Shown: positions 1 through 37,050 of the stretch, one piece after another
How positions within the stretch are numbered: position 1 is the first letter of the stretch
How the letters are laid out: each line of letters starts with the position of its first letter
DNA from: Nemertoderma westbladi
Taxonomy: Eukaryota; Animalia; Xenacoelomorpha
Direction of reading: 5' to 3'
NCBI GenBank assembly: GCA_032718475.1
Contig: JAUCBJ010000187.1
Span: forward strand, 71,482-135,481
Length of the DNA stretch: 64,000 bases
Position numbers and translations under genes: made by a program
The notes under the pieces: generated by a model
Told to the model about the DNA's origin: nothing
The model's database searches: none
The model's input: the letters and a program-made list of their open reading frames with translations, nothing else

Positions 1-620
1 CCGATCTATAATTGACAGGACATTCAGGTACACCAAGGTGTCTGAAATACTTACGGTCCTCTAAGGATTGTTCTGGGACAGGACCTAGTAGGTTACTAAA
101 GTCCTTTGTGGCCGCAAAGGTTAAATCTTTAAAGGGTAACAAAGACCTCTCCTTTTCGCTATGTTGCGATTTCGGAAGAAGAGTGTCTAAGTTCAACTTA
201 ACTCGTGTTACTGGTATTGCACGTTGTCCATGCATACTACTTACGGTGTAACTGACGTTCTTACTTTGTCTAAGATCCGTCACGACATCAGCTATCTGCT
301 CATCCACGTAGCTGTGAGATGAGGCTGAATCTAGAATAGCATAGATTCTCTTGCTCCCCTTTGTGCCAGTAATCTTAATCGGAATTACGCTGAAACCTTT
401 TAATTGGTCAGTCGTCAGAAGCGCGATCGATGGTTGTTCGTCTCCATCTGAATATACGTCGTCGTCTTCCGACTCTTCGTCCGACGATCCGGATTGTTCT
501 GAGAAGCAATCCCTAATATGTGTCACGAAAGTTGGAGTCGTTTTTGATTCTCGATTATTATACGCGGTGTTGCATTTTGCTGCCGCCAGGGTGTTCCCTG
601 GCGAAGCGTTTGGTTGGCGT
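1..620 (-). CDS. pol: BEL/Pao aspartic protease region (pol start), in a different frame from gag; open to window edge
   Basis: Manual translation of the third minus frame gives FSVIPIKITGTKGSKRIYAILDSASSHSYVDEQIAD... with no stop down to position 1. Confidence 0.8.
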
Positions 621-3600
621 ATGGCTGTCTGTGTGGAGCAGACCGTCGTGGTTGCGTCCACAGGATGGACAAGTGTCGGTATTTGGGCAATCTTTGCGGA
701 CGTGTCCGTGTCGCGTACACCGCCAACAAGAGTCCAATGGCCGTATCTGCAGCCGTCGTTCTTCCGAGTTTAACTCGCGAAACTGTCGACAACCTCTCAA
801 CTTGTGACCGATATACCGCTTGCCTAAATGCTCGCAGTATTGGCAGCCGCTGAAGTCTGTACTGAGTTGCTGTCTAGTCTGTTTTATTCCAATGGGCGCA
901 GATACCCTACTACCGTCCGAGAATTGTCGTGTTTCCGTTGGTGTGGCGTAAGTGGCCGTCTTGGTGGATGTTGTCTGGGGTTTTTGTCGGTTTGAGGATG
1001 GCAAGGTGATTCCTTCTGCTACGATGTGCTGGTCAGTGTAGTTGGATCGAGTTTCTACCACTGCTTCCCTGGATATCAAAAGGTACACATCTTCCAGTTT
1101 TAAGAATCCACCCCGCTCTTCCCGCTGGTATTCGATCTTCCTCCACTCCCGACGAAGTCGATGGTGGAGTCTTCCTATGATCTTTAATAATACTGTAGGG
1201 GTATTCCCGTATTCAAGTTGTCCAATAGATCTTAATGTAGAGATAGCGTTCTTGATTTCGTCAGCCAGTTTCAATAAGTCGACGGGTTTAGTAATAGCCC
1301 CTCCCTTACAGAGTTCCTCTATCACTGACCTGGCCATGCTGACTGTACCTCCGTAGATCGAAGTTAAACGATCGTACGCTAGTTCGAAGGCGTCCGGTAC
1401 ACCAACGAAGGTCTCCGCCAAACGTTTAGGTTCTCCCGACAACGTTTGAAGCAGGTAATTAAACTTCTCCCATGATGTAAAGGCGCACACGGCGATCTGA
1501 GATTCGATATAGTCTACGAAAGTGTGCCAGTGTTTTGAGCTACTGGAAAACTTAGGTGGTTGTTGCACCGGTAGTCCTTGTCTAGCTGCGAATTTCGCTA
1601 TTTCCTCGGCAACGTTCAGAGTTTCGCGTCCTTGGTTGGTAATCTGGTTGATGTCCCTTCTTGGCGCTTTTCCCTGATACGATGTGTTTTTTGAAGGTAT
1701 CGGTCTTTGTGGTTCCTTCGGGTGTCTATTGTGTTCGAATTCAGTGTTCCTCGAACTATCGGTTTGAGCTTCCTCCAGACGTTCCTCAATCTGAGCCAAC
1801 TTGTTAACAACTGGTCGCAGGATGTCGGCGAACTGTTGTGTACTGATTGCGTCCGTTGGTTGTAACGCCTTCTGTGTTGGTGTATTTCGTGGAGGATTGT
1901 CTACAAAGGAGTTGTCTGAACGCTCGCGTTTATATTCATCGGCCGCCCCTGTTCTAAATACCTCGCGTTTCGGGTAATCCGATTCGCTCGAAGTACTACT
2001 ATCATCTGGATATGGTGGTCGACGTGCTCGCATCCGTTGCGTCGTACGAATTCTAACGTTTCGTTTCGGAACATCGTCCACTGGTCTCCGTTGTTCGGTA
2101 GGCTCACAAGTCTTCCTCGAAGTCGTAGATTGCGATGTAAACTGGTTAAACGGTCGCGTATCCACTGGTCTCCGTTGTTCGGTAGGCTCACAAGTCTTCC
2201 TCAAAGTCGTAGATTGCGATGTAAACTGAATCGGTGGTCCAGTAACAGCATTTGAATCAACTGGCCTTGTAGGCCGAAACGTCATTGGGTATTCGTAGTG
2301 CGTAACCGGTTTAGGTGTCAAAGGTGGACTCACCTGTTTTGTCGTTAGTAGTGCAGGCCCGGTCAATAAACTACTACGATCAGTAGTCGGTGGGTTACTT
2401 ACCTTGACTTTCAGAATGGGCGACGACGTTGCTCTTGGCGGTGTAAACTTGTCCGGAATAACAAACCTGTGTTCCGTCGCGCCATGGATAGGAGAAATAT
2501 TACTACTACCAGCAATCGAAACAGGTTCCTTTGTCGTAACTGGTGCAAACATAGGAGTTACTTGAGGGAATCTTTGACATAAGTCTTTAACTAATTGTCT
2601 TTCTCGCCCAGGTGCCCCTACACTTCCTTCCTTCATTCGTTCCTGAATTTGGCGGTGCCTTACCTCTATCTGGTCCAAATCATGTCCGTCACGAGATCTC
2701 ATCGATCGATCGCGGGCTTGTAGATCCAGATCTTCCTTCGCGTTGTCTAATTCTCTCGCCTTCTTCCCGAGTTCGAAATGAAGTTTAACTTCTTTCTCGC
2801 GTTGTTCCGTCTGTTGTTGTTGCGCCTCGAACTCCGCTTGTCGTATAGCTGATTGAGCCTTTATTTGCCGTTTTTTCATCTCGGCTCTCGCTTCTGAAAC
2901 TAACCTTTGTCGCTCTAACTCGGCCGCTGCTGCTGCCGCCGCCTGTCGCTCTAACTCGGCCATTGCTGCTGCCGCCGCCGTTTGTCGCTCTAACTCGGCC
3001 GCTGCCGCTGCCGCTGCCGCCGTTTGTTGCGCAATGTCCAACTCTAACCTTTCCATCTCGGCTGCTTCCAACTCGGCTTGTTCTTGCAGATGAGAGATTC
3101 TTGCAACATTCGCAATGCGTAGTTTCTCTTCTTGTACGGCTGCTTGTGCCATTAGCAGTTGAGTTTGTTCCTCCATCTCTCGTTGTTGTCTGTCAAACTG
3201 TTGTTGCTGTCGAGAAATTTCTGACATTACCATGCTTACCTCGTTAATCTCGCTGCGAATACTTACTAACGATTGATCCAGTATTCCCGGTGCCAGCTCG
3301 ATTTGTGCGATTGAAGTTTCCCTCGTAGCCTCCGGCACGGTTTCCCAATCTCCGACGTCCTCGCCGCACATGCGTAAGTGATCCGTCAGGTGTTTCAATT
3401 GTCCATCCAGCCTATACAGTTCCTGTTCTTCCTCGGGTTGCAATAATTCGTCCGAAACTGACTCACCTAACAACTGGTCCGCTTGTTCCTGTTGTATCTG
3501 CCTAATCGTCGACTTAAACTGAATCAGTTTCTCTCTAGCGATCATTAGTTTCTCGAGGATTCTAAGTTGAGTATCCATGTCCTGTCTCTGTCTAGCTAGA

Positions 3601-4031
3601 TCTTGTAGACTGATAAGGTTATCTACGGACTTATGTACTCTACTTTGTACTCTAACCTGGAGGGTGTAGAACTCAAACCGAGACATCGGAGCGGTCAACT
3701 CGTCTAATATGCGTTGGCCTTCTCCAATACTCCTGGTAATATGCGCCATGTATCCGCCGACGCTTCTAACCACGCTCTCCTGGCTTCCTACTGAACTTAC
3801 CATGTCCGTTTCCCTATATCTAGGTTGTGGAACAGTTAGAAAGTCCTCGGTCCTGCCGTCGCCTCGTACTACGGCATCCGGTACTCCCGTTGGATGTACT
3901 GGTGACGCACACGGTGTAGGTTCGGTAGGCTCGCGAGTCTTCCCCTGTAGTTCTTCCGCTGCTGACTTATCCGCGTCACATGAGTCATAGTCGGTAGGTG
4001 TATTCTTCGTATAGTCTTGTTTGTCACTCAT
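558..4031 (-). CDS. gag: BEL/Pao Gag, 1157 aa, with long coiled-coil N-terminus
   Basis: KFSSSSKHWHTF..EKFNYLLQTLSGEPKRL (DUF1759-like); CQYC..H..C, CWRCTRHGHVRKDC and CPSCGRNHDGLLH knuckles. Confidence 0.9.
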   Translation of the reverse strand: MSDKQDYTKNTPTDYDSCDADKSAAEELQGKTREPTEPTPCASPVHPTGVPDAVVRGDGRTEDFLTVPQPRYRETDMVSSVGSQESVVRSVGGYMAHITRSIGEGQRILDELTAPMSRFEFYTLQVRVQSRVHKSVDNLISLQDLARQRQDMDTQLRILEKLMIAREKLIQFKSTIRQIQQEQADQLLGESVSDELLQPEEEQELYRLDGQLKHLTDHLRMCGEDVGDWETVPEATRETSIAQIELAPGILDQSLVSIRSEINEVSMVMSEISRQQQQFDRQQREMEEQTQLLMAQAAVQEEKLRIANVARISHLQEQAELEAAEMERLELDIAQQTAAAAAAAAELERQTAAAAAMAELERQAAAAAAAELERQRLVSEARAEMKKRQIKAQSAIRQAEFEAQQQQTEQREKEVKLHFELGKKARELDNAKEDLDLQARDRSMRSRDGHDLDQIEVRHRQIQERMKEGSVGAPGRERQLVKDLCQRFPQVTPMFAPVTTKEPVSIAGSSNISPIHGATEHRFVIPDKFTPPRATSSPILKVKVSNPPTTDRSSLLTGPALLTTKQVSPPLTPKPVTHYEYPMTFRPTRPVDSNAVTGPPIQFTSQSTTLRKTCEPTEQRRPVDTRPFNQFTSQSTTSRKTCEPTEQRRPVDDVPKRNVRIRTTQRMRARRPPYPDDSSTSSESDYPKREVFRTGAADEYKRERSDNSFVDNPPRNTPTQKALQPTDAISTQQFADILRPVVNKLAQIEERLEEAQTDSSRNTEFEHNRHPKEPQRPIPSKNTSYQGKAPRRDINQITNQGRETLNVAEEIAKFAARQGLPVQQPPKFSSSSKHWHTFVDYIESQIAVCAFTSWEKFNYLLQTLSGEPKRLAETFVGVPDAFELAYDRLTSIYGGTVSMARSVIEELCKGGAITKPVDLLKLADEIKNAISTLRSIGQLEYGNTPTVLLKIIGRLHHRLRREWRKIEYQREERGGFLKLEDVYLLISREAVVETRSNYTDQHIVAEGITLPSSNRQKPQTTSTKTATYATPTETRQFSDGSRVSAPIGIKQTRQQLSTDFSGCQYCEHLGKRYIGHKLRGCRQFRELNSEERRLQIRPLDSCWRCTRHGHVRKDCPNTDTCPSCGRNHDGLLHTDSHTPTKRFAREHPGGSKMQHRV

Positions 4032-4884
4032 TTCGGTAGTTGTAAGTCAAGTAAAATGTGAGTGTCAAAGTATCAAATTTACCATATTTATATATAAACG
4101 GTACTAATTACAGTCATATAAAATTAGCCTACCGGCCGATTTTATAGCAGATGGATAAAATTAGCCTAAACGGCCAATTTTACAGCAAATAAATGTCACG
4201 GAATAAGTATATAATAAAATTTGCCTAGCGGCCAATTTTATAACAAATAAATCGGATAACGATATGCGTTATCAAAAGGTAAATTAAATACAATAGTACG
4301 GACAAATTCAGCAATGAACAAAGAAATCATACGGAATGCATAAATACTTGAGACAGTGGAACCCACAATAATTTTAACTAATACGGTAATGCCTAACTTA
4401 TTTATGCAACTTTTCGAACTCACCCACTCCAATAATTCTCCAGAAAAACAGATTCCCAGATACAAACCGGACGTGAACCTTTCCGTTTTCAACGTTGCGG
4501 ACGAAGCGCGATTTTCCCAACCAAAGTTGTTGAGTTATCTATCTCCCAAACTTGCTAAACACGGTCTTGCTCCCGTTACAGTCTAGAAATGAGCTCTGAA
4601 TCCTGAAAAACAAAAGAGTTAGGTTTTACTTTTACGAAAAATTTTGTACCGGTACAATATGGTATTTAAACCCTTTTAAACACCGGTATTCAATTCCAAA
4701 ATATTTTACACGCGGTTCAAATCAAATTTTATTTCAAAAAATTAGCACTTAGCTAATCAAATATAAACTTTTACCTCAAAATACAAAATTTTCAAATAAC
4801 TTTAGTCCTACCGAACCGTAGTTCAGTAAAACATATTCCTACTGATCTAGGAAATATGTTAAATAATACACATATTCCTACTGA

Positions 4885-6787
4885 TGCGAAGAGACAGTAA
4901 CAATACCTGCAATATCTTACTGAAAAGTTTGTAATCAAATCATAAATCCGACCTTCTCACCAAAACAGTAAACTCCAAGTAAGCGAAAATATTGCAGTAT
5001 TGGTCCCTTATAACCGGTGAGGCAGAAAACAGTCTACGAGCAGACAAACTTCGATAAAACAAAATCCCGCGCAGCGAATCCTAAAATCAGGCTGACTCAC
5101 TGACGGACTAAGGGGCTCGTATACTTTGCCGCGGTGTGATTTATATGGTTGGGCGAAAGAGACGCTAGCTAGGTGCAGAGATTTGGAGATGTCTAACTAG
5201 CGGGCAAAGCGCAGTACGGACAAAAGTTAATTTTATATATTTTGAGGTGTAAATAATTTCTAACTCGCGTGTGTTAATTCTGAACCGTCAAAATCAGTTT
5301 TGCTCCTTCATATATATAATTACTGGGTACGGTGTGCATTTTACAAATATTCTAATTTTGTAACTTGTAGGTCCAATACTCACGAATAATAAGGTTCCTT
5401 CCCCTCTTGCATATTTCCAGGACTCAAATTCAGGCATAAGATTAATGCTACGCCCAGAATTCGGCAATTTTTTAATTTACCAGGTCCCTAATACTAAGAA
5501 GAAATGTGTTAGTTTACTACTGTAGGCGTACGGTTAAAATAGCTAGCCTGGCGTCCTATCTAGAATTTTAGTCACCTAGGTAGGCTGGGTAACTTCCTAT
5601 CAGGACGTTGGTGGGGACATGGTAGATGTTAGTATATCCCTAATAGCCTCAATTTATTTCCGCCTAGTCGTAAACTGCCCTACCGCCTGAACGGTACAAT
5701 CCTAATTCAGGTGAAACACAGTAACCCTCCTAGCCTACAAGTTCTAACGCAATGGACACCGTTGTACTACAAATAGTCGCAGACGCACCTGTACTTAGCA
5801 AGAGTTAGGCGTACAGTTTGCTGCACCCTACCAATGTGTATGCTTCGTACCGGTGTGCCTACGTCCTATCTGCGTACTAGTATCTCTGCCTGCTCTCTCC
5901 CCCCGTAGGAATATGAAGGTCTACTGCGGTTTTTTCCTGAATTAAAACAGTACAGTCCCTAAGATGTAATTTTAGGCGTACAGCGTGTCACTACCTCTAC
6001 CTTTGATCTTTGGTCTTACGCTTAGGTAGCAAGGCATCGAACGCTGTCTAACCTTTCAGGCGATGGGCGAATAACTAAGATGATATTGCGGGTTGTCTCC
6101 TGTCTACATTCCCTTGATGTTCCCGTTCATTGCTGCGGCCCGAAGTCTAGCCAGCCATCCTGTCCCTTAGTTGAGTTCACCGTGGTGAAGCATGATAAAA
6201 CAGATAGAAAAGGACAGATGTGACAAGTATTTCTAACTTTTATTACAAAATCAAACAATAACTATTATACAATAAACGATGTAATCTGAAATAATAATCT
6301 GTGTAAGAATGAAGATGTGTAAGAAAGATAGATTGATAACTAATGAACGAAATCGCACCTTTTATACCAAATTTGTGCCGCAATCAATCGAGAAAATTCT
6401 CGATTGTTCTATAGGTTCTAACAGGTTTTTAAAGATAGCTATTGGTCCAGCTAATATATAACTTGCACGACATTGGTTACAATCAAATAACTACAGTCTC
6501 ATTGGTTAATCTAGGTACAGACAAATGCAATTTAATTTGTAGCGGTCAATTTAAATGAGTTGAACTTCTGCACAAAAAATAATTCGCACTTACTAGGATT
6601 CGAACTCAATACCTACTACATATATAATTTCCAACGCTCTACCGACTGAGCTACTGAACCACTTGACTAAACATCGTACAATAGATATAACAAATACAAT
6701 GAGGACTTAATGTAATCTTTAACAAAGTTAATTCGAATAAAATAAAAATTTTGAAAATCCACGGCATTTAGGGAATATAATTCTATA
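4885..6787 (-). repeat. Family-A LTR (5' LTR of element A); inner boundary uncertain
   Basis: About 1.9-kb high-identity reverse-complement match to 9435-11324; contains CCAAT boxes, TATA and AATAAA. Confidence 0.75.
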
Positions 6788-6832: not shown

Positions 6833-8649
6833 ATGAGTGAGTTTGAATCACAGCTCAAATGGAGAGGATGCGTGTATTGGGCTATTACGTCACCTCCAAG
6901 AGCGGTCTTACAATATTATTTAGCAATAGAGTCGTCAGTGAATGTTTGCTTAATCGCCGACATTGTGTCTCGGACTCTTAAAAGACATCCACTTTGTCTC
7001 GGAGAAGATCATACGTTCTACATGGAAGGGAGAATTCATACCGACGTGTTTAGACGATTTCTTGAACCCTTCTACAACTCCGACGCTCAGTGTAATGCCT
7101 TTACTCGAGCAGGATTTAGTATATTTCGAGACGTGTATCTTCGCTGTGCGGGATCTCTTATCGAAAGACCATCTATGTTTACATTGTTACCCTATGAAGG
7201 AGAACGTATCGTGGAGGTTATGGATGAATCACGGCAGACGCGCGCGCCTATCGGTCACCTTGGTGATGATTTCGAAGTAACGACAACGATCACTGACGAT
7301 CCTTTAGAGGAACTTCTTGAGATAGAAAGGAACCTCCCGAAGAAATCTCAGACGGAGATTCGACAACTTGAAGCAACAGATGCTGTAGTTTGTATACAAC
7401 CTTCAGAAACCTACCAACCCATAGATCCAGATGATTATGATTATAGTGTGGGAGGAAGCGCTTGACCAATTGGAGATCTTATATATGGTGCCGAGTGTGG
7501 TACCCTGCCAATACGATGTGTGGTAAATGTGGCGTCGCTGGACATCATTTGACCAAGTGCAGTGGAAAGCACATTACTACGACTCAACTAATCTGTGGAT
7601 GGTGTGGAGATCAAGGGTCTCATACCTTTTATACTTACTGGAGATTTATGGCTCAATGTACTTATTGCAATATAAAAGGGCATCGAGCATCTGAATGCCA
7701 ACTAAGAGACATACCTTATGAACACGAATCTGTAAAACTCGTGAGAAAACTATTCGATGAGTGGGAAGATTTAGCCGACGAACATGTATCGGCACAAAGA
7801 AGACGATTTCCGATGAGAGCGCATCTTGGATTTTGGGCGGTAAATCCCCAAACGATGATGTCGGAAGGATACATCTCCGCTATGCCCCAATATGACGAAC
7901 TTATCGAGGTAGTCGATATTTTGCCTCACGATAGTGGATTTAGAGTGGTGCACGAGTATCTGTTACAGATTCACCCGGACAATAAAAATACGTGGAATTT
8001 TCAGAAAGTTGTGAATCGTATCACGTATGGTGAATTTGATCGTTTCCGAACTGAAAAGCGGAATAAGGGAGCTTGGTTAACCGTCGCGTGGGCATACTGA
8101 GCCGTGTTTTACCACAAATGTATACAAGCGAGCGTATTCAAGGAAGAGGAGATCCTAGAGGCGACAAATATACCAGCCACTCCGGTTGCGCCGTCTGCAC
8201 GTCACCCTCGGGAGGACGGGCAGGGTAGGATCATAAGGGTCCAGAAAGTGAGCCAACAATTAAAGAAGTCTATTAATATAGAAGAACGCAAGGGTGTTGA
8301 GCCGACCATTCGAATTACTCGGGATACGGTATCGCTTCCTAGAGAACCAACAGGAGGATCGGGACATACACCAGCTGATCAAAAGTGGGCGCAAGCTACT
8401 CTTGGGTCTGCGTCGTCCGCTTCCCGCGCGTTCCCAGACGTTTTACCAACTGTAGTGACAACTGATCGGTCACGAGGAATCGGTCGAGGTTTTGGGATAC
8501 CAAATAGACGAATTTGTGAGGAATCGGACGCACCGTCTCCCAACGTACAAGCAAAACCAGTGACTCGCCCCACGAGTCCCATATCGCGAGCAAAGTCACC
8601 TGTGCGCAGTTTTCGAGGACGCGGCAGGGCTCGATCTACTAAGCGATAA
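6833..8649 (+). pseudogene. Disrupted accessory zinc-knuckle protein gene (homolog of 13318-15015); one frameshift near 7462 and one in-frame TGA at 8098-8100
   Basis: Shared motifs: SRTLKRHPL/SRTIRAHPL, FRRFLEPF/FRRFLTPF, AGFSIFRDV/AGFAIFKDV, three CxxC..H..C knuckles, WEDLADEH/WEANADLH, basic tail. Confidence 0.8.
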
Positions 8650-8663
8650 AAGGGAGGGCAAGG

Positions 8664-9200
8664 GTGGACGGAAGACTCGTGAGCCTTTCTTGTGAATTTG
8701 TGATTTATTTGAGTTATATATTTTATATTTAGTAAGTATGTATTCTGGAAGAACTCATATTTAGTAAGATTTATATTTAGTAAGAATTTATATTTTGCAA
8801 GATTTATATTTTATATTTGTGTTTATTCCGAACTTATGCAATTTGTATTGTTCCGAATCCTATGCAATTTATATTTTATAAGCAGTATTTGTGTTTACAG
8901 TGAAATAGAAAGTAAGAGTAGATGGAAGACTCGTGGGCCTTTCTTATAGTTTCATTTGTAAAGTGTTATATTTTGTATTTAGAAGGTTTTATAGTTAGAA
9001 AGTTTTGTACTTAGAAAGACTCATATTTGTAATTATTCCGAACTTATGCAATCTACATTTAGGCACAAGGTATTTGTAATTACTTGAATTTATGCAATAT
9101 TTGAGATGCAATAGTAGATGGAAGACTCGCGAGCCTTTCTTATGATTTTCATTTATTTGTATTTGTAATTATTTGAATTTTGCAATATTGAGATGCAATA
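8664..9200 (+). repeat. Dispersed repeats in the 3' UTR of element A'
   Basis: GAYGGAAGACTCGYGRGCCTTTCTT three times (~8667, ~8921, ~9117) plus several TTCCGAACTTATGCAAT-like units. Confidence 0.8.
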
Positions 9201-9562
9201 GATTTATATTGGTGAATTTAATTTAGATTTATATTGTACTTACTTAGTAAAGCCTTAAATATGTAAAGTTTGAATTTGTAATTATTTTGTATCGAATCAT
9301 TATGTAGAAAGGAAGTATTGTTTGAAATTTAATTTGTAAATATGTAAGTACGCCCTAAGTATTCTATAATTTGATTGATTATAGGTGAAAACCGTATATT
9401 TTATGCACGATAATATCCTGTTTTCATGGAGCGGTATAGAATTATATTCTCTAAACGCCGTGGATTTTCAAAATTTTATTTTATTCGAATTAACTTTGTT
9501 AAAGATTACATTAAGTCCTCATTTGTATTTGCTATATCTATTTGTACGATGATTATTCAAGT

Positions 9563-9626
9563 GGTTCAGTAGCTCAGTTGGTAGAGCGTTGGAAATTATA
9601 TGTAGTGTGTATTGAGTTCGAATCCT
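9563..9626 (+). other. tRNA-derived Pol III A-box/B-box segment inside family-A LTR U3 (second copy at 6595-6660, minus)
   Basis: TAGCTCAGTTGGTAGAGC (A box) and GAGTTCGAATCC (B box); no proper anticodon or acceptor stems. Confidence 0.7.
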
Positions 9627-9714
9627 AGTAGGTGCGAATTATTTTTTGTGCAGAATTTCAACTCATTTAAATTGACCGCTACAAATTAATTACATTTGCT
9701 CGAAGTAAGATTAA

Positions 9715-9880
9715 CCAATGAGATTGTAGTTATTAGATTGTAACCAATGTCGTACAAGTTATATATTCGTTGGACCAATAGCTATCTTTAAAAACCTGTT
9801 AGAACTCATAGAACAATCGAGAATTTTCTCGATTGATTGCGGCACAAATTTGGTATAAAAGGTGCGATTTCGTTCATTAG
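9715..9880 (+). promoter_or_regulatory. LTR Pol II promoter: three CCAAT boxes, HSE-like palindrome, TATA, Inr
   Basis: CCAAT at 9715, 9744 and 9775; CAATCGAGAATTTTCTCGATTG at 9814-9835; TATAAAA at 9854; TCATT/TTAGT near 9875; mirrored in the 6340-6510 copy. Confidence 0.65.
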
Positions 9881-12363
9881 TTATATCTAAATCTCAGTCT
9901 ATATCTCAATCATTCGTGCTTTAGATTATCTTTATTAGTTATCTATTAGTTTTTTGTTACGTTTATGTATATCTTCTGTAATAAAGTCAGAATTATCGCT
10001 AATCTGCCCTTTTTCTATCTGTTCTACTATGCTTCACCACGGTGAACTCAACTGAGGGACAGGATGGCTGGCTAAACATCGGGCCACAGCAATGAACGGG
10101 AACATCTAAGGAATGTAGACAGGAGACAACCCGCAATATCACTCTTAGTTATTCGCCCATCGCCTGAAAGGTTAGACAGCGTTCGATGCCTTGCTACCTA
10201 AGTATAAGACCAAAGATCGAAGGTAGAGGTAGTGACACGCTGTACGCCTAAAATTACATCTAGGGACTGTACTGTTTTAATTCAGGAAAAAACCGCAGTA
10301 GACCTTCATATTCCTACGGGGGAGAGCAGGCAGAGATACTAGTACGCAGATAGGACGTAGGCACACCGGTACAAAGCATACACATTGGTAGGGTGCAGCA
10401 AACTGTACGCCTAACTCTTGCTAAGTACAGGTGCGTCTGTGACTATTTGTAGTACAACGGTGTCCATTGCATTAGAACTTGTAGGCCAGGAGGGTTACTG
10501 TGTTTCACCTGAATTAGGATTGTACCGTTCAGGCGGTAGGGCAGTTTACGACTAGGCGCAAATAAATTGAGGCTATTTAGGGATACTAACATCTACCGTG
10601 TCCCCGCCGACATCCTGATAGGAAGTTACCAAGCCCACCTAGGTAACCAAAATTCTAGATAGGACGCCAGGCTAGCTATTAGTACCCGTACGCCTACTGT
10701 AGTAAACTAACACATTTCTTCTTAGTATTAGGGACCTGGTAAATTAAAATTGCCGAATTCTGGGCGTAGCATTAATCTTATGCCTGAATTTGAGTCCTGG
10801 AAATACGCAAGAGGGGAAGGAGCCTTATCATTCGTGAGTATTGGACCTACAAGTTACAAAATTAGAATATTCGTAAAATGCACACCGTACCCAGTAATTA
10901 TATATATGAAGGAGCAAAACTGATCTTGACGGTTCAGAATTAACACAGGCGCGTTGGAAATTATTTACACCTCAAAATATATAAAATTAACTTTGTCCGT
11001 ACTGCACTTTGCCCGCTAGTTAGACATCTCCAGATCTCTGCACCTAGCTAGCGTCCTTTTCGCCCAACCGCGGCAAAGTATACGAGCCCCTTAGTCCGTC
11101 AGTGAGTCAGCCTGATTTTAGGATTCGCTGCGCGGGATTTTGTTTTATCGAAGTTTGTCCGTTCGTAGACTGTTTTCTGCCTCACCGGTTATAAGAGACC
11201 GATACTGCAATATATTCGCCTACTTGGAGTTTACTGTTTTGGTGAGAAGGTCGGATTTATGATTTGATTCACAAACTTTATAGTATGATATTGCAGGATT
11301 CGTGTATTTGTTACTGTCTCTTCATTTAAATATTTATAAAAATCTATCAAAACAAATGTTATAATAGAGTCAATGCATACAAATAAACTCTAAGGAGTTT
11401 GTAAACCAAGAAAATCTATAAATTAAAATCTGTTAAAATTTAGATTCTAGTCGATTAAGATATCGTAGCACTTACCGATACTCTTAAAAGGACAAATTTC
11501 CTAGAATCAAGGATTCCAGTCCCCAGACATGCTCTGGAATAAAATTGTGCCTATTTAATATTAAATAATAAAATTTACGGGAATAATTTTAAATTCATAT
11601 CCTCTCATGAATTTGATAAATTGTCATTTTATACAATTTATAACATTCTCAAAATTCCATTAATTAATAGATCATGGGAGCAGAGATTCACCCTATTAAG
11701 TATATTAGTGTGAGAGAATCTCCAATATATAGTCAATAGCCGATAAAATTCATAACATCATGTATAAAGGGGAATATTGACAATTAAAGAATTACTATTA
11801 AATAGCATCCCAGATCTGTATGCATGCGAATTACCCTAATTCTACTGCTAGCTTTCCATAATGTCACCATAGCAACAACCAGCTAGAATTAGAAGCGAGT
11901 TTAAAGAACAATAGAAAGCTTGCCCCATTGAATAGCATACGGAATAAATAGCACACTGTTAGTATCCAGGGATACATAATAATATCGTGGCATTCTGGAA
12001 GGCACTTGACTAACGGACAAATGGCCCGAATATGTACAATTTGTGACAGTTGTGTGGAATTTGTGCGTTTATAGGTGAATTTTGCTACTAAAGTGTGTTT
12101 ACAGTAGCAAGTCGCAGTTGTAAAAGTAGCCCTACCTCTGCAGTAAGAACCTGAAGTAAATCTAAGCCCTTGGGATGGACAGTGGAGTGACTCGCGCTGG
12201 TTATTGTTGTCGTTGTGTAGCTACTACGTTGGCGATAGGCACCGCGACAAGAGTACATCGGCGCTGAGGATCTTGCACTGTCCGGGGGCATTGAGGGGTA
12301 GGCAGCGACGCCTGCTAGCCTAATTATAATTAATTATAATATCGATAAACTCATATAGCAGCT

Positions 12364-13314
12364 ATGACTGAGTTGATAGAAGATGATCTTGGTATCAGGG
12401 AGCGATATACCCTACCGTTGCAAGCGTTTGTTGATAGCTTAATACGCAGCAACACTAGTCCAACTACTACGGAGGATGATGGCCGTTATATCGAACCGCC
12501 AATATCCAAGGAACAACTCACGCGTGAATTGGACTATATAAAATTCACCACTCGCTATACGCATCATAATGGTACGTATATGGACTTCTTAACTACTGGC
12601 CATCCTATCGATTTACACGATACGGACGATGTAGACACCGAAAGGGAAATGGTTCTATTTAAATATCATACCCAGCGGAGTTGGAACGATAAACCAAGAA
12701 TCGAACACGAGAATTCTATTCGAAACCGAATCGAAAGAGAAGACGTTGAAGAGCCGGATAAACGCAGCGACTTCAACGAATATCTGAAATTCTTGAGAGA
12801 AACATATCTCAATATTGCCAGCCAACAAAATCTAGAAACTCGATATCCTCAAGGTATACATCATGACCCTATGATAGAACTCAAATGGCTCTATTTCACT
12901 ATGATGTATCTTACCGCCGACCGACCGCTACCTGTTGTCCCGGATAGCTTCGAACAGATGGAGGAATATTGTAAAACTGGAGAACGATCACCCGCGTTTC
13001 CCCTACAGGACGTGTGTCTTTGGTATTATTGCGATGAATGCCCTAGACCCAACCAACAAACGGAAAGACATAGACAATTTGAACTCACGCAGCGTTACGT
13101 CACCGACACCGAGTGCAAACCGGCCATGGGTATCGATGGATCGATGTTACCCCAGCCCGTGCTCGAGATGTTGTTTAACGAAAGAATCCTTAAAATCGGC
13201 TCAGCTGTTTATGGAGATCTCCAAAACGACTTTAGGAACATGGAGAATATCCCATATCCTTTCGTAGATACCCAGCTGATTGCTCCCTGGGCAGAAGGCC
13301 GAGGTTTCTTCTGA
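12364..13314 (+). CDS. Retrotransposon accessory protein, N-terminal ORF (316 aa, unknown function)
   Basis: ATG-initiated ORF; close homolog at 33763-34152; in frame with the next ORF across TGA-ACT-ATG. Confidence 0.7.
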   Translation: MTELIEDDLGIRERYTLPLQAFVDSLIRSNTSPTTTEDDGRYIEPPISKEQLTRELDYIKFTTRYTHHNGTYMDFLTTGHPIDLHDTDDVDTEREMVLFKYHTQRSWNDKPRIEHENSIRNRIEREDVEEPDKRSDFNEYLKFLRETYLNIASQQNLETRYPQGIHHDPMIELKWLYFTMMYLTADRPLPVVPDSFEQMEEYCKTGERSPAFPLQDVCLWYYCDECPRPNQQTERHRQFELTQRYVTDTECKPAMGIDGSMLPQPVLEMLFNERILKIGSAVYGDLQNDFRNMENIPYPFVDTQLIAPWAEGRGFF

Positions 13315-13317
13315 ACT

Positions 13318-15015
13318 ATGTATGCCAATACACCCAGCGGCATCAATAAAGTACAACGAACCTCCATCGGACATCTTGCCTTCCAAGAATACAGATGGAA
13401 TTTCAAAGTCGGAAACCCTATCAACTATCAACAAGTATATGGAGATCATTATTCTCGATTATACTTCAACGGACCATTGACCGCACCTGGCGTCGTGTAT
13501 AGCTTCATGAGTGTTCCACTTCGTCCCTCATTAGCTATATACACTATCTTCGAGAACGCCGCACTTGCCGGTTGGCTAGCCGATGTGTGCAGTCGTACTA
13601 TACGCGCCCACCCCTTAATACTTGGAACCAAACTCGCCAAGCTAGATGAACACAATAAATTCATCCGCTTCGAATGCTTTAGGCGCTTTCTGACTCCGTT
13701 CCGTAACATTGATAGTCAGTTCAAGGACCGCGCTCTGACCAAGCTCAGCCTAAGAGACTCAGCTGCTGAGAAGTTAGACAGTGCTGGATTCGCCATTTTC
13801 AAGGACGTTTGTATACAGAACTTACATTCCTCTGTTATACAAAGACCTCGAATCCTTACGGGTTATTCTATCGTGGAAGTTCAGACACTGGGTTCGCTTG
13901 AGGAGACAGCCACACCTACCTCAGCTATGCAATTGGAAGACGAACCAATATGCTTAGAATCCGAGGAGATTCAGCCCACGGCGCCCCGGAGCAGTGACAA
14001 CGACTACGTCTTGGAATGGTATCAAGGTCCACAATGTCTCACTGCGTACAATTATCGGCATGCCAATTATGTCTCTAGGAAACGTTGCCGATTGTGCGCA
14101 TCTCGAGACCATTTCACCACGGTGGACTCCAACGTACCCTGCTCCTACTTCCATGAACAGCCTGCGAAGGAGATCTATTGTGTGTATTGTAGACTCAATA
14201 ACTTGCACATTTTCGCAGTCTGCCCCCAATTTATGACTCAATGGCATCATTGTCAGTTTAAAGGACATGCAAGTTTTGATTGCCCTTTCAACCGCGATCT
14301 GGAAAGCGTAGATAAAATGATTACCCTACGCTACATCCGAGCCTGGGAAGCGAACGCAGATTTACATTGTGAGTCACGTCATCGCTATTACCCTGGATGT
14401 GCCTACGAAGGAGTTTATGAGTTCCACCCGTATCTATTCGCGTCCGTTGAACAAAAATCTCGCACACCGAGTTACGAACTAATGAAGCGTGTTGGCGAGA
14501 ATATTTCGACCAAATTTGTTCGTAAATATCTCAGGAACATTAATCCCAATGATCTTAATTCCTATAACTTGATCAACTTCATCCGTCAAGATCCGGAATA
14601 TGGTGACTTGTTCATCAACTCGCATCCAGAACTACAGGAAGTTCATAGACGACCCTATGAATATAGAGCCCGAGAACGTGAGTTAGAAAGAACCATCAAA
14701 CCAAGGAAATTTCTCACTACTCACGGTCCACCTACCGCTCTCGTGCAAACGAATCGTCAGGGACCAGTAAGAGCTGCTGTCTTGAAACGCGCTCTGAAAG
14801 TTGTTCGACCTCGCTCCACTGAGGTTGATATCGATCAACCGGGTACCTCGACCGGCGGATACACCGACCGTAACCCTAAACCTTCCGATGCAATTGTATT
14901 GCACCCTTCACCCAGGAGTTATAGCCCTCCTAGTAAAGTGGCTTTCCCCAAAGAGAAAAGGACTCTTGCTAGCCTCAAAAAACTGCGTAAACGCCGTTCG
15001 CGTAAGAAGGACTAA
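13318..15015 (+). CDS. Retrotransposon accessory protein, C-terminal ORF (565 aa; three zinc knuckles, KKLRKRRSRKKD tail)
   Basis: Long ORF with homologs at 6833-8649 (distant) and 32713-33780 (close); ends about 80 bp before the LTR. Confidence 0.8.
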   Translation: MYANTPSGINKVQRTSIGHLAFQEYRWNFKVGNPINYQQVYGDHYSRLYFNGPLTAPGVVYSFMSVPLRPSLAIYTIFENAALAGWLADVCSRTIRAHPLILGTKLAKLDEHNKFIRFECFRRFLTPFRNIDSQFKDRALTKLSLRDSAAEKLDSAGFAIFKDVCIQNLHSSVIQRPRILTGYSIVEVQTLGSLEETATPTSAMQLEDEPICLESEEIQPTAPRSSDNDYVLEWYQGPQCLTAYNYRHANYVSRKRCRLCASRDHFTTVDSNVPCSYFHEQPAKEIYCVYCRLNNLHIFAVCPQFMTQWHHCQFKGHASFDCPFNRDLESVDKMITLRYIRAWEANADLHCESRHRYYPGCAYEGVYEFHPYLFASVEQKSRTPSYELMKRVGENISTKFVRKYLRNINPNDLNSYNLINFIRQDPEYGDLFINSHPELQEVHRRPYEYRARERELERTIKPRKFLTTHGPPTALVQTNRQGPVRAAVLKRALKVVRPRSTEVDIDQPGTSTGGYTDRNPKPSDAIVLHPSPRSYSPPSKVAFPKEKRTLASLKKLRKRRSRKKD

Positions 15016-15093
15016 CTGTTTAGAGTATTTTTATATTTTAGAAACTGTGATTTTTTATATTTTATAGAATTAAATCCCATTTTCTGGGAGCGG

Positions 15094-16227
15094 TGTAAAA
15101 GCTTTTGCGGATATAACAAGCCATTTTCTCCGCAATATACCGTGTAGGTATTTTAGCGGACATAACAAGCCATTTTCTCCACAATGTAACGTGTAGGGGC
15201 TTTAGCGGACATAACAAGCCATTTTCTGCCGCAATGCGCCTAATACTCTAAAAGACTGGAACTCATATGACGAAATCTGTCAGCTGATTTACTGTAAACG
15301 TGGCACATCTCTTTGTTCAGCTCGCTCAGCCAATCAGAGCGATTTTCATTTTATCTTGCACAGAGGCCTACGGAAAACCGCGCAATGCATTACGGATTTT
15401 GTTTACCTTTCTGAGCCTCAGAACATCGGCTTAGAAATTATTCTGTGCTTCTGTAGATGTTTCAGACTTTAGCCAAACATTAGACGGCTTTGATTATAAG
15501 AACGTAAATCTATTATCAAATTAAACCAAACCATACCAAACTGCATTATTTTACTTCTGTTTACTGCCTGTTATTAATTGTTATATGTTGATGGATATGT
15601 TGTTATATTTGGAGAATACCGATAAATAATCATAAAACCCCCAATCTTCTTGATTACTGAAGGTAAGAGGGACCGGTTACCTGTAGCAATTGCGACTTAC
15701 ATTATAGTGGTTTTAGTGTGAATTAAATGCTTTTTCATAATACCTACATGTGTCAGTTGGTATCCTCCTTATATATAATCAAATTCAGTGACGGTCGGCA
15801 GATCAGTGTGAAGTATTGTGAAGTCGTGTGCAGTAGGGTGACAGATAATAAAGCATCTCCTAAAGAATGCGCTATTTACGGAAATCATTAGCCATCTCGT
15901 TGTGTTTAGTGTAAGTCATAACTCTGTTTTATACTTAAAGCACCACGTCCTAAAGGAACTGTTAATATTTCCCCGAAAGTGAATAATATTGTCAGAGATT
16001 ATATAGTAACGATCAATCAAATAATACAGTAGGTCTGCAACGCAATAAATTTCAAAGCACCCGAATCCAGTCTCCCTTAACTGTGGGTGAATGATCGCGC
16101 ATAGACTGGCTTCGGCTAATGTTACTTCATGTGCACTAAATAATTGTTATAGGCTAAAGTCGATTTATAAACAAGAGGACACCTAAAATTGGCAGGTTAA
16201 ACTGCTAAAGGTCTGAAAGCGCGAACA
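15094..16227 (+). repeat. Family-B LTR (B1) with three ~50-bp tandem repeats at 15103-15236
   Basis: TG...CA termini (TGTAAAAGC...GCGCGAACA); homologous to LTRs at 31390, 34802 and 43352; TATA near 15771 and TCAGT Inr near 15804. Confidence 0.9.
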
Positions 16228-31389: not shown

Positions 31390-32634
31390 TGTACGCGCTT
31401 TTGAAGACCTTTAGCAGTTTAACCTGCCAAAATTTATATGTCTTTTGGTTTATAAATATACTTTAGAAGATGACAAATATTTAATACCAATAAACACAAC
31501 ATTAGCAGAAGCCAGCCTAGTGCGCGTCCATTCACCCGCTGGATATTCCCGGGAGACTGGATTCTGAGGGCTTAGATTATTATTGCAGTGTAAGCTTACT
31601 GTACTGTATTATTCGATTGATCGTTAATAATTAATTTCTGACTAATATTATTCACTTTCGGGAAATATTAACAGTTCCTTTAGGACGTGGCGCTCTATCT
31701 AGGTAAACAGAGATATGACTTATACTAATCACAACGGTAAGTCGGTAAGGCTTATGATTCACGTATGAGGCGCATTCTTTAGGAAATGCTTAGTTATCAA
31801 TCACAATCATGCACACTACCGGTAACACACAATACTGCCCACTAATTTGCCGACCGTCAATGATTTTTATCATATATAAAGCGAACAGCAATTGACTCAT
31901 GTAGGGCTTACCAAATAGCATTAAATTCACTACAAACCACAACAATATAAGTCGCAATCGCTATATATAACCCGTCTCTCTAACCTGTAGTGTATCAAGA
32001 AAATTGGGAAATTTGGGTTCCTTATATATGTTCTCCAAATAATATTCAACCAAAACACAACAGTAAACAGCATTAAGACGGTAGGTTAAGATATGATATG
32101 ACAATGTATGTGCCGATTGAGTCGATAACAGTTATACGCTCTATAATCTTAAGCCTACTAATGTTTCTTCTAAAGTATGAAAACGAATTGACTCTAGAGC
32201 CGTTGTTCCTGGCCTAGATAGCAATGACACAACAGTATCACAAAAAACAGTAAGACTGAACACTCTCCTTATGATCGGCCGAAAAGCTACACATCGACAG
32301 GAAAAATCGCTCTGATTGGCTCAAGCCAAACAAAGAACCATGCGTCCAATGGCTGTTTCCATGTCAGCAACCAGCTGTTAGATGTCGTAATATGAATCAT
32401 CACGGATAAGCTGTGAAAGGTATTTGGTGCATTGCAGGTTTTTTGCCTTACCATGTCCGCTAAAACACGTATATAGCAGAATGACTTTTATGTCCGTTAA
32501 AACACCTGTAACGGTACCTTGCGGGCGAAGGGAATATATGTACAGTTAGAGAACCTTTTAGAGTATTCCAGCGCCTGGGGGGAAACTGGATTGCGAAGCA
32601 ATGGGGCCAGTTATATCCCACAGAAGCTTTTACA
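31390..32634 (-). repeat. 3' LTR of element C
   Basis: Near-identical to 43352-44596 (two substitutions noticed by eye). Confidence 0.95.
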
Positions 32635-32712
32635 CCGCTCCCAGAAAATGGGATTTGAGTCTATAAAATATACAAAATCACAGTTTCTAATATACGTAAA
32701 TACTCTAAACAG

Positions 32713-34170
32713 TTAGTCTTTCTTGCGCGGACGGCGTTTACGCAGTTTTTTAAAGCTGGCCAGAGTCTTTTTCTCTTTGGGGCGAGCCACTTTATAAGGA
32801 GGGCTATAACTCCTGGGTGAAGGGTGCAATATGATTGCATCAGAGGGTGTAGGATTATGGTCGGTGTATCCGCCAGTCGAAGTGCCGGGTTGATTGACAT
32901 CAACGTCGGGGGAGAGGGGTTTAACGGCCTTGAGAGCGCGTTTTAGGACAGCCGCTCTGACGGGTCCTCTACGAGTGGTCTGAACAAGAGCCGTGGGTGG
33001 ACCATAGGCAGTCAGAAACCTCCTGGGTTTAATGGTTCTTTCCAACTCGCGTTCGCGGGCTCGGTATTCGTAAGGTCGTCGATACACTTCCTGTAACTCG
33101 GGGTGTGAGTTAACAAATAAGTCTCCATAGTCTGGATCCTGACGGATATAATTGATTAAGTTATAGGAATGAAGGTCGCTAGGATTAACACTCCTGAGAA
33201 ATTTGCGTACGAATTTGGTTGAAATACATTCTCCGACGCGCTTCAGTAGTTCGTAACTCGATATGCGTGATTTCTGTTCGACAGAAGTGAATAGATAAGG
33301 ATGGAACGCATAAACTCCTTCGTAAGCGCGTCCAGGATAATAGCGATGGCGCGAATCACAATGTAAATCAGCGTTCGCTTCCCAAGCTCTGATGTAACGT
33401 AGTATGATCATTGCATCTACGCTTTCCAAATCGTGATTAAAAGGGCAATCGAAACTGGCGTGTCCCTTTAGTTGACAATGGTGACATTGAGTCATAAATT
33501 GAGGGCAAACCGCAAAAATGTGCAAGTTATTGAGTCTGCAATACGCACAATAAATTTCCATCACCGGTTGTTCGTGGAAATAGGAACAGCGGACGTTTGT
33601 GTCCATGGGCGTAACATGGTCTCTCGATGCGCATAACCGACAATGTTGCCGAGAAACATAGTTGGCATGGCGATAATCGTACGCAGTGAGACACTGTGGA
33701 CCTTGATACCATTCTAGGATGTAATCGTTGTCGCTGTTCCGGGCGCGATAGGCTGAATCTCCTCAGATTCTAGACATATTGGTTCGTCTTCCCAGTCTGT
33801 TACGAATAGAATTTTCGTGATCTATTCTCGGTTTATCGTTACGACTCCGCTGGGTATGATATTTAAATAGAACCATTTCCCTTTCGGTGTCTACATCGTC
33901 CGTATCATGTAAATCGATAGGATGGCCGGTAGTTAGGAAGTCCATATACGTACTATTACGATGCGTATAGCGAGCGGTGAATTTTCGATAGTCCAATTCA
34001 TGCGTAAGTTGCTCTTGGGACATCGGCGGTTCGATATAACGACCATCGTCCTCCATAATGGTTGGATCGGTTTCACCGCGTATCAAGCTATCCACAAATG
34101 CTTGTAAATGTAGAGTATATCGCTCCCTGATACCAAGATCATCTTCTATCAACTCTGTTATATCTGCTAT
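32713..34170 (-). pseudogene. Accessory zinc-knuckle gene of element C with ~1.2-kb internal deletion and ATG>ATA start
   Basis: Homolog of 12364-15015; the junction near 33790 fuses ENSIRNR to EDEPICLE out of frame. Confidence 0.85.
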
Positions 34171-34801
34171 CTGAGTTTATTAATATTGTAATGAGTTTAT
34201 GTTTAGGCGAGCGGGCGTCGCTGCCTACCTCTCTTCGCCCCCGGACAGTGGGATTCTCAGCGCCGATGTACCGTCGTCGCGGTGTTTATGCCAACATGTA
34301 GCAACAGCACGACAACGATAACCGGCACAAGTCACTCCACTGTCCGTCCCAAAGGCTTGAATCCACTTTAGGTTCTTTCTATAGGAGAGTTGGGCTACTT
34401 TCACAATTGCGACTAGCTACTGTAAACATACTTTAGCAGTAACATTCACCTACAAACGCACAAATTCCACACAACTGTCACCAATTGTACACATACAGGC
34501 CATTTGTCCGTTAGTCAGTGCCTTCCAGAATGTCACGTTATTACTGTGTATCCTTGGATACTAACAGTGTGCTATGTATTCTCTATGCTATGCAATGGGA
34601 CAAGCTTTCTATTGTTCTTTTAACTTGCTTCTAATTCTAGCGTGGGTGTTGCTATGGTGACATTATGGAATGCTAGCGGTAGAATTAGGGTAATTCTCAT
34701 GCATACAGATCTGGGATGCTATTTAATAATAATTCTTTAATTGTCAATATCCTCTCTATGTATGATTTTATTAATTTTATCGGCTATTGACTATATGTTG
34801 G

Positions 34802-36056: not shown

Positions 36057-37050
36057 GTTGGAGATTCTCGCACTCTAATACACTCAATAGGATGAATCTC
36101 CGCTCCCGTGATCTATTAATTAATGGAATTTTGGGAATGTTATAAATTGTACAAAATGACAATTTATGAAATTCATTTAAAAATATGAATTTAAATTTAT
36201 TCCCGTGAATTTTATTATTTGATGTTAAAATTGACACAATTTGATTCCAGAGCAGGTCTGGGGGCCTAGGATCCTTAATTCTATGACAATTGTCCTTTAA
36301 GAGTATCGGTAAGTGCTGCGATATCTTAATTGACTAGAAATTTAAAGGATCTGAATTTTACAGATTTTTACTAAATATTAAATTAATATTTAAGATGGGC
36401 ACCGATTTATTCCAGAACTTGTCTGGGGACTTTAACCACTGATTCTAGAATTTGTCTTTCAAGTATATCGGTGGGTGCCGCGATATCTTAATCGACTAGA
36501 ATTACAGATGGTCAAAAAGTTTAACAGATTTATTTGCGTTTTACGCTACTGTTAGAGGGACATCACGCTACTATATGTATTATTTAATATAAGGTAGAAG
36601 AGCAATATCGCACGAAGCAATGTCAGTGTGAAGAGGCAAGTCGTTTCCAAGGTCTACCCAGAGCTTGGTTTAGCCGAGACACGAGGATCTGAACTTTGCA
36701 TTCCTAATACTCTGCCTACCAATAATACTTAAGTATAGTAGGAGCTTTATTGTACTTTAATAAGTACGGACATTTCATCTTACTGTAGTCACGTATTTAT
36801 AATATGATACGGACAGTAAGGAAAGAGAAAAATAATTATTTCTCGCCGTCACACTAAATATATTATAAGTAATTACGTACGTAATAAACACTAATATATT
36901 GCACTAATCTACTAAATAATCACTAAAATAACATTCTACTAAATAAAATTAAAGGAAACGATTATAATAAAATTACATAATAATACATACATAAATATAA
37001 AATAAAAACAAATATAAAATGATATAGTCACACGCCCACTCCACATGCTA

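What the first reader, a model, noticed from the sequence alone, without database searches (positions are those of the whole stretch)
6833..15015. Non-Env accessory gene at the env position of two BEL/Pao families
Seen: three homologous copies (6833-8649, 12364-15015, 32713-34170) sit in sense orientation before the PPT and 3' LTR, in elements with two dissimilar LTR families. Architecture: ~315-aa unknown region, a conserved domain (SRT..HPL, FRRFL.PF, AGF.IF.DV), acidic linker, three CCHC-like knuckles, a second conserved domain (WE..AD.H, YL..I.P), and a disordered tail ending in an Arg/Lys run. No signal peptide or TM helix is evident, so it is unlike Env. A' and B copies are deeply diverged yet keep the motifs, and B versus C differences look largely synonymous, implying selection. 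I do not recognise the family. Inference: a nuclear nucleic-acid-binding regulator (Rev/Tat-like, or anti-silencing by analogy to VANC).
Basis: partly seen in the sequence, partly recalled or inferred. Interest (0 to 1): 0.85.

Follow-up and report, generated by a model that had tools for sequence, protein, structure and literature searches.

The report
Exonuclease-like third gene in BEL retrotransposons
Two distantly related families of BEL/Pao jumping genes in this animal genome carry, where an envelope gene would sit, a conserved extra gene whose protein likely joins an RNA-trimming-enzyme (DEDDy exonuclease) fold to three zinc knuckles and probably binds and escorts the element's own RNA.

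Summary
Three copies of one ORF lie before the PPT and LTR of BEL/Pao elements, and copy C sits inside an element with gag, pol remnants, near-identical LTRs and a target-site duplication. B versus C gives dN/dS 0.11. The stops and the frameshift are private to these copies. No transmembrane segment was found.

The protein is not wholly unknown. A deep profile search found six distant relatives with the same knuckle and post-knuckle module; four of these clusters carry an N-terminal DEDDy-type 3'-5' exonuclease region. A relatives-only profile matches PDB EXD2 (E 6e-4) and copy B (E 2e-7). Copy B keeps the ExoII Asp but shows no ExoI D-x-E in register, so it is likely catalytically impaired. 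Whether the whole family is impaired is open.

The closest precedent is the DEDDy ORF3 of bdelloid rotifer LTR elements. Not found in print: such a gene in BEL/Pao, or this domain fusion. Most likely it is a trans-acting RNA-binding accessory protein (0.5); an active small-RNA nuclease is the main rival. Structure prediction failed and no RNA data were available.

The parts
12364..15015 (+). Copy B of the accessory ORF (883 codons plus stop), broken by one in-frame stop at 13312-13314
   Evidence: 99% or more of laid contig depth has another letter at 13312 in 4 of 4 runs
12364..12915 (+). N-terminal ~185 residues, acidic, no recognised family; first 125 codons kept in copy C
   Evidence: no Pfam match; dN/dS 0.21 B vs C
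12916..13620 (+). Likely DEDDy exonuclease-like domain; only the core at 13144-13365 is statistically matched, the outer limits are inferred
   Evidence: relatives-only profiles E 2e-7 and 1.7e-5; hhalign probability 87, E 3.9e-6
13198..13218 (+). ExoII-like motif with its Asp kept
   Evidence: aligns with the ExoII region of relatives and of EXD2
13540..13554 (+). Candidate ExoIII Y-x-x-x-E, also present in copy A
   Evidence: multiple alignments; score not above shuffles (30 of 200 for B and 11 of 200 for A reach it)
13678..13812 (+). Conserved FRRFL / AGF segment after the exonuclease-like domain, shared by A and B, of no known family
14086..14283 (+). Three CCHC-type zinc knuckles
   Evidence: alignment with relatives; family profile matches LIN28 knuckles, E 1.6e-5
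14344..14600 (+). Post-knuckle conserved domain (E..AD ... R ... G), no Pfam match
   Evidence: E, A, D, R, G invariant in 9 of 9 rows; relatives-only knuckle+domain profile hits A 8e-20, C 3e-14, B 2e-13
14977..15012 (+). C-terminal Lys/Arg run, possible nuclear localisation signal (inferred)
   Evidence: sequence
15086..15093 (+). PPT-like purine-rich tract of B
15094..16227 (+). 3' LTR of B (TG...CA)
11411..12363 (+). Non-coding pol-to-ORF3 spacer of B, homologous to the spacer in C
   Evidence: 85-87% identity
6788..8649 (+). Copy A, 5'-truncated; stop at 7463, frameshift near 7486-7491, stop at 8098
   Evidence: laid contigs differ from this copy at all three breaks in 3 of 3 runs
8650..9434 (+). 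AT-rich 3' UTR of A (27% GC) ending in the PPT-like tract at 9428-9434
9435..11323 (+). A-type LTR followed by a 5' leader; exact LTR end not defined
   Evidence: 91% inverted match to 4888-6787
558..6787 (-). A-type element head in the opposite orientation: LTR and leader (6787-4888), then a BEL/Pao gag (4046-558)
   Evidence: DUF1759 E 3.9e-10
32713..34161 (-). Copy C, with a ~1.2-kb internal deletion near 33787 that removes the exonuclease-like domain and changes frame
   Evidence: the same joint is in a contig of run X4
31390..44596 (-). Element C: 5' LTR 44596-43352, broken gag 41246-37761, pol remnants 37791-37051, nested solo LTR 36056-34802 (CCAAC duplication), copy C, 3' LTR 32634-31390; flanked by an ATTTT duplication
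   Evidence: LTRs differ at 2 of 1245 positions; DUF1759 E 1.4e-12 and a weak protease match

Best explanation
This is a third gene of BEL/Pao LTR retrotransposons, kept under purifying selection, whose protein likely has a DEDDy 3'-5' exonuclease fold followed by three zinc knuckles and a basic tail, and most likely works as a catalytically impaired RNA-binding factor that escorts or shields the element's own RNA. Shown: position, conservation, selection, knuckles, absence of a membrane segment. Inferred through relatives: the exonuclease fold. Inferred from one damaged copy: loss of catalysis. Inferred from anatomy and analogy only: expression from a separate spliced or internally started message, nuclear entry through the basic tail, binding of element RNA through the exonuclease-like surface and the knuckles, and help with export, transport or protection from small-RNA silencing. 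It would act in trans, since a derivative lacking the domain (C) inserted recently.
For: dN/dS 0.108, with 153 of 238 differences at third positions; shifted-frame controls give 1.6-1.7. A profile built only from non-window relatives matches human EXD2 (6k17, E 6e-4). Such profiles match B at 13144-13365 as the only significant place in the window's six frames. A profile that includes B and A ranks EXD2 (0.0026), Egalitarian (0.13) and WRN exonuclease (0.25) among its 17 hits. The Atlas's top three clusters for relative P0004 are all DNA_pol_A_exo1 (scores 0.89, 0.81, 0.81; leads only). No D-x-E falls in ExoI register in B in any of the alignments made. Egalitarian's exonuclease-homology domain binds RNA without its putative catalytic residues (PMC13186709, passages). 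CERV of Cer1, encoded partly at the env position, is needed for genomic RNA export (PMC10309623, passages). Element C lacks the domain and most of pol, yet its LTRs differ at 2 of 1245 positions.
Against: B alone does not match any exonuclease in Pfam or the PDB, so the fold rests on a two-step link. Both AlphaFold models failed (pLDDT 34.7 and 40.3). The ExoIII register is not above shuffles. The ExoI state comes from a single copy with many private changes, and A and C lack that region. The ExoII Asp is kept, and a Y-x-x-x-E is shared by the very distant A and B, which an active enzyme would also show. Three of four relatives keep an ExoI D-x-E. There is no direct evidence of expression, localisation or RNA binding.
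Confidence: 0.5

Rival explanations
1. The family protein is an active 3'-5' exonuclease. It would trim or degrade host small RNAs (piRNA, siRNA) aimed at the element, or process 3' ends of the element's own RNA or cDNA, with the knuckles holding the substrate.
For: ExoII Asp kept in B; Y-x-x-x-E shared by A and B; relatives P0004, P0007 and P0008 keep ExoI D-x-E. Bdelloid DEDDy ORF3s keep their catalytic residues, as a DEED variant (PMC5408684, section 3.3). Copy B has many private substitutions, so its ExoI may not represent the family.
Against: No ExoI D-x-E in register in the only copy that has the region. The ExoI-side half of B did not align within the significant profile match.
Confidence: 0.27
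2. The protein is a DNA- or chromatin-level anti-silencing or transactivating factor that binds the LTR (VANC-like or Tat-like), as the first reader also suggested.
For: Basic tail and an acidic linker; an accessory gene kept across two LTR families.
Against: The recognisable parts are an exonuclease-like domain and CCHC knuckles resembling LIN28 and Gag nucleocapsid, which from general knowledge bind RNA or single strands. The protein is shared by elements whose LTRs have no detectable similarity.
Confidence: 0.1
3. The exonuclease resemblance is chance, and the ORF is an accessory knuckle protein of unrelated fold.
For: No direct Pfam or PDB match for B; only about 70 residues align significantly.
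Against: The relatives were found through the knuckle module, yet a profile of their separate N-terminal region finds B's N-terminal region in the same domain order, E 2e-7.
Confidence: 0.1
4. The ORF is a divergent envelope gene or a captured host gene riding passively.
For: It occupies the env position. Some BEL/Pao elements carry env-like genes (PMC8742986, whole text).
Against: No transmembrane segment (hydropathy window at most 1.38). No close cellular homologue in three word-index searches and one full HMMER search. Selection on the ORF between mobile copies is strong.
Confidence: 0.03

Closest known systems
DEDDy-like ORF3 of bdelloid rotifer Juno and Vesta LTR retrotransposons and Terminons (PMC5408684: abstract, sections 3.1 end to 3.5 start, passages, supplement; PMC6431247: passages)
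   Same: A non-Env ORF downstream of pol with an RNase D-like DEDDy domain and no transmembrane segment; function untested. The paper notes a Cys-His-Cys motif in some members.
   Different: Those are rotifer-specific lineages with dUTPase in pol, and the paper does not place them in BEL/Pao. Their catalytic residues are intact. The text read describes no triple CCHC array or post-knuckle domain in them.
CERV of C. elegans Cer1 (PMC10309623, passages)
   Same: A non-Env protein encoded partly at the env position, nuclear, cysteine-rich, needed for export of genomic RNA: the best functional analogue.
   Different: Ty3/gypsy element; H, M and G-protein-like domains; the word 'exonuclease' does not occur in that paper's main text.
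EXD2 / WRN-exo / Egalitarian group of DEDDy exonucleases (PDB 6k17, 2fbt, 9uju)
   Same: Best PDB matches of the family profiles. Egalitarian uses the domain to bind RNA without its putative catalytic residues (PMC13186709, passages).
   Different: Cellular genes without this knuckle module; the match is remote and reached through relatives.
Six unnamed metagenomic proteins (P0002-P0007, with cluster member P0008)
   Same: Share the knuckle and post-knuckle module (E 2e-9 to 1e-3); four clusters also have the exonuclease-like region in the same order.
   Different: About 20-25% identity; three of the four keep ExoI D-x-E; their genomic context could not be retrieved, so it is unknown whether they are transposon genes.
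Env-like genes of Belpaoviridae (roo F-like, mosquito chuvirus-like glycoproteins; PMC13524379 passages, PMC8742986 whole text)
   Same: [quoted passage not shown]
   Different: Those are membrane fusogens; this ORF has no membrane segment.

Membership tests
BEL/Pao LTR retrotransposon (Belpaoviridae) | Direct LTRs with TG...CA ends and a target-site duplication | tested here: met
   Element C: LTRs differ at 2 of 1245 positions, ATTTT duplication
BEL/Pao LTR retrotransposon (Belpaoviridae) | BEL-type gag (DUF1759; its link to BEL/Pao is recalled knowledge) | tested here: met
   E 1.4e-12 in C's gag, E 3.9e-10 in the A-type gag
BEL/Pao LTR retrotransposon (Belpaoviridae) | pol with PR-RT-RH-IN, RT grouping with BEL/Pao | tested here: inconclusive
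   RT and the integrase core are missing from C; a weak protease match (E 0.008) and short RNase H-end and integrase-end motifs recognised from recall remain. No tree was possible.
BEL/Pao LTR retrotransposon (Belpaoviridae) | PPT before the 3' LTR; tRNA-Arg or tRNA-Gly primer-binding site after the 5' LTR | tested here: inconclusive
   A shared GGAGCGG end lies before all three LTRs. No primer-binding site was recognised by eye; it was not tested against tRNAs.
DEDDy 3'-5' exonuclease fold (EXD2/WRN/RNase D group) | Sequence-profile homology | tested here: met
   Two-step link: relatives to EXD2, E 6e-4; relatives to B, E 2e-7, probability 87. B alone gives no direct match.
DEDDy 3'-5' exonuclease fold (EXD2/WRN/RNase D group) | DnaQ-like three-dimensional fold | tested here: inconclusive
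   Model pLDDT 34.7; the fold search returned only generic helical matches, Z at most 7.7
Active DEDDy exonuclease | ExoI D-x-E | tested here: not met
   Copy B only: no D-x-E in register in any alignment made. A and C lack the region; the family-wide state is unknown.
Active DEDDy exonuclease | ExoII Asp | tested here: met
   Kept in B at 13198-13218
Active DEDDy exonuclease | ExoIII Y-x-x-x-D | tested here: inconclusive
   Y-x-x-x-E in A, B and P0007, but the alignment score is within the shuffle range
Active DEDDy exonuclease | Metal-dependent 3'-5' nuclease activity | not testable with these tools
   Needs a bench assay
Bdelloid DEDDy ORF3 family | Grouping with Juno/Vesta/Athena DEDDy ORFs in a tree | not testable with these tools
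   Sequences not held; the paper's one supplement lists primers only
Env / viral fusogen | Signal peptide and transmembrane anchor | tested here: not met
   Hydropathy scan of 7 of 7 ORF pieces, maximum 1.38; no dedicated signal-peptide predictor was run

The most novel reading that the evidence does not exclude
An unrecognised, widespread family of mobile-element proteins (DEDDy exonuclease + three zinc knuckles + a new domain) is a transposon-encoded counter-defence against small-RNA silencing in animals, built from the same fold as the host piRNA factors EXD1 and Maelstrom, and these BEL/Pao families supply it in trans as a nuclease or a decoy.
Probability: 0.25. Interest if true: 0.85.

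Novelty: new variant of a known kind. Interest (0 to 1): 0.6.

Why it matters
ORFs at the env position of BEL/Pao elements are described as env-like and of unknown function (PMC8742986). This one is a non-envelope gene kept under strong selection in two deeply diverged families. For the bdelloid extra ORF3s, PMC5408684 reported no clear departure from neutrality within the genome and left their advantage open. Here there is direct evidence that a DEDDy-like ORF3 matters to its element, plus a defined companion module that finds relatives elsewhere. It makes a standing question testable: how animal LTR elements without env export, protect or unsilence their RNA.

Tried and rejected
Word-index protein searches found nothing beyond the query: B's 3' ORF, 0 of 6460 candidates; alignment A4, 0 of 5592, which missed even its own members and so is weak evidence; P0004, itself only, among 7992. 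The top hit of the full HMMER search, P0001 (E 8e-14, 8 stretches), is a repetitive protein without the knuckle module; I dropped it as a false hit and kept 6 of 7. The Atlas search with B gave only CCHC-type clusters under 0.9. Pfam gave no exonuclease match for B or the relatives. Direct PDB sequence searches with P0004 and with B's exonuclease region gave nothing useful. Searches for the DNA around relatives or B found no locus. No whole genome is held. No RNA holder was listed, so expression is untested. ARAGORN and Rfam found nothing in or near the elements. Two look-ups of earlier findings were empty. Paper searches that found no description of a DEDDy or knuckle ORF3 in BEL/Pao: 0 papers; 1, unrelated by its listing; 0; 2, both on rotifer ORF3s; 'exonuclease' does not occur in the main text of PMC3118150 or PMC8556966. 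Repbase, GyDB and subscription papers were not searchable, so such an ORF may be noted there. The supplements of PMC3118150, which list BEL/Pao sequences, were not read and may bear on this. Summed contig depth is far above that of the unique flank but is not a copy number, and I give none.


Full report
Setting. The window is from an animal: it holds an ATG9 exon (E 5e-52) and several BEL/Pao remnants, a metazoan group (PMC8742986, whole text). No whole genome was available.

The three copies. Copy B is 12364-15015 on plus, 883 codons with one stop at 13312-13314. Copy C is 34161-32713 on minus, 84-86% identical to B in protein, with a ~1.2-kb internal deletion and frame change. Copy A is 6788-8649 on plus, 26-31% identical to B, cut at its 5' end by an inverted A-type LTR and broken at 7463, near 7486-7491 and at 8098. 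A's two conserved pieces score 169 and 150 against shuffle maxima of 52 and 51; its tail is not alignable. Each copy is followed by GGAGCGG and an LTR start.

The elements. Element C spans 44596-31390 on minus. Its LTRs differ at 2 of 1245 positions and it has an ATTTT target-site duplication. Inside are a broken DUF1759 gag, pol remnants without RT, a nested solo LTR with its own CCAAC duplication, and copy C. [quoted passage not shown] Copy A is followed by an LTR and leader that are 91% identical to those heading the DUF1759 gag at 4046-558, so its tie to BEL/Pao is indirect. A-type and B/C-type LTRs show no blastn similarity, and the two gags are 22% identical.

Selection and integrity. 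Over 467 codons B versus C gives dN 0.081, dS 0.746, ratio 0.108 (bootstrap 0.076-0.149). By region it is 0.057 in the knuckles, 0.070 in the post-knuckle domain, 0.158 in the tail and 0.208 at the N-terminus; shifted-frame controls give 1.6-1.7. The exonuclease-like region is deleted in C, so it is not covered by this test. In contigs from four DNA runs (at most three samples), 99% or more of laid depth has another letter at B's stop. In three of three runs the contigs differ from A at all three breaks. The lesions are therefore private to these copies. No single contig spans a whole ORF, so an unbroken copy is inferred and was not seen. C's deletion joint also stands in a contig of run X4, so that derivative is not unique to this assembly.

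Not Env. No 19-residue window exceeds hydropathy 1.38 in any of seven pieces.

Finding relatives. Pfam, a word-index search and the Atlas gave only knuckle-level hints. A full HMMER search with an A/B/C profile gave 7 hits; one repetitive protein was dropped and six share the knuckles plus the following E..AD...R...G domain. A profile from those relatives alone finds A, C and B at E 8e-20, 3e-14 and 2e-13. All are unnamed or 'hypothetical', and their contigs could not be retrieved.

The exonuclease-like domain. Four relative clusters are long enough to have an N-terminal region (P0002, P0004, P0007, P0008); two hits are short. A profile of those four regions alone matches human EXD2 in the PDB over the ExoI and ExoII part (E 6e-4). 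Relatives-only profiles match B at 13144-13365 and nowhere else significantly in the window (E 2e-7; 1.7e-5; hhalign probability 87). A profile that includes B and A lists EXD2 (0.0026), Egalitarian (0.13) and WRN (0.25). The Atlas's top clusters for P0004 are DNA_pol_A_exo1, the first with CCHC knuckles in 61% of members (0.89, a lead only). Against this, B alone matches no exonuclease and AlphaFold failed with such shallow alignments. I put the fold assignment at about 0.85.

Catalytic residues. B keeps the ExoII Asp. A and B share Y-x-x-x-E at the place where relatives have Y-x-x-x-D or E, just before the SRT..HPL motif, but that short alignment is within the shuffle range (30 of 200 and 11 of 200). 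In the ExoI region the alignments disagree on register and none gives B a D-x-E, while three of four relatives have one. Only B covers this region and it carries many private changes, so the family's state is open. I put family-wide loss of catalysis at about 0.6-0.65.

How it likely works. The anatomy is an acidic N-terminal region, an exonuclease-like domain, a short conserved segment, an acidic linker, three knuckles similar to LIN28's, a new domain and a basic tail. This is the make-up of an RNA-binding protein. Egalitarian shows that this fold can bind RNA without its putative catalytic residues (PMC13186709, passages). CERV shows that an LTR element can use a non-Env gene at this position for genomic RNA export (PMC10309623, passages). 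I therefore favour an accessory factor that binds element RNA and escorts or shields it (0.5), acting in trans because C inserted recently without the domain or RT. The main rival is an active nuclease against small RNAs or for end processing (0.27). None of these steps was observed: no RNA run was listed.

What is known. DEDDy ORF3s were described in bdelloid Juno and Vesta LTR elements and in Terminons, with intact catalytic residues and no shown function (PMC5408684; PMC5718144 and PMC6431247, passages). BEL/Pao third ORFs are described only as env-like in the texts I read. Ten paper searches found no DEDDy or knuckle ORF3 in BEL/Pao; Repbase and GyDB were not searchable. PMC2774666 and PMC8556966 were seen as passages and added nothing. 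Homology to the bdelloid proteins could not be tested.

Verdict. A real, selected accessory gene. It works like the known DEDDy ORF3s or CERV; membership in the bdelloid family is untested. New here are the BEL/Pao host, the fused knuckle and post-knuckle module, the likely impaired active site and the evidence of strong selection. New variant of a known kind; interest 0.6.

Noticed in passing
window 9570-9624 (+) and 6653-6598 (-): The A-type LTR holds a tRNA-like stretch with RNA polymerase III A-box and B-box-like motifs (pattern from recall). ARAGORN and Rfam do not call it. It may be a captured tRNA or SINE head inside an LTR.
   Followed up: partly
window 4888-6787 and 9435-11323: Two A-type LTR-plus-leader units form a 1.9-kb inverted repeat (91%) around copy A: a nested, rearranged cluster, not a DNA transposon.
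   Followed up: partly
window 34802-36056 (-): A solo LTR of the B/C type sits inside element C's spacer with a CCAAC duplication. It is 95% like C's LTR in its first 440 nt and 78% in the rest, so it looks recombinant.
   Followed up: partly
window 20985-24338 (-): A fourth, decayed BEL-like element (gag-like ORF and integrase remnants) whose pol end resembles C's, with no trace of the accessory ORF.
   Followed up: partly
window 57812-61818 (-): A Ty3/gypsy-type gag-pol (RT, RNase H, integrase) flanked on both sides by the same ~31-nt-unit satellite (52804-57347 and 61818-62572).
   Followed up: no
window 48620-50930: A tandem array with a unit of about 44/88 nt.
   Followed up: no
window 45327-47145 (-): A non-LTR retrotransposon RT-like remnant, recognised by eye from the translation.
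   Followed up: no
window 62540-63881 (-): Host ATG9 exons next to the repeat cluster (for 62543-63097; the second exon by eye).
   Followed up: no
P0002: This relative carries the knuckle and post-knuckle module twice in tandem, which suggests the module is an independent unit.
   Followed up: no
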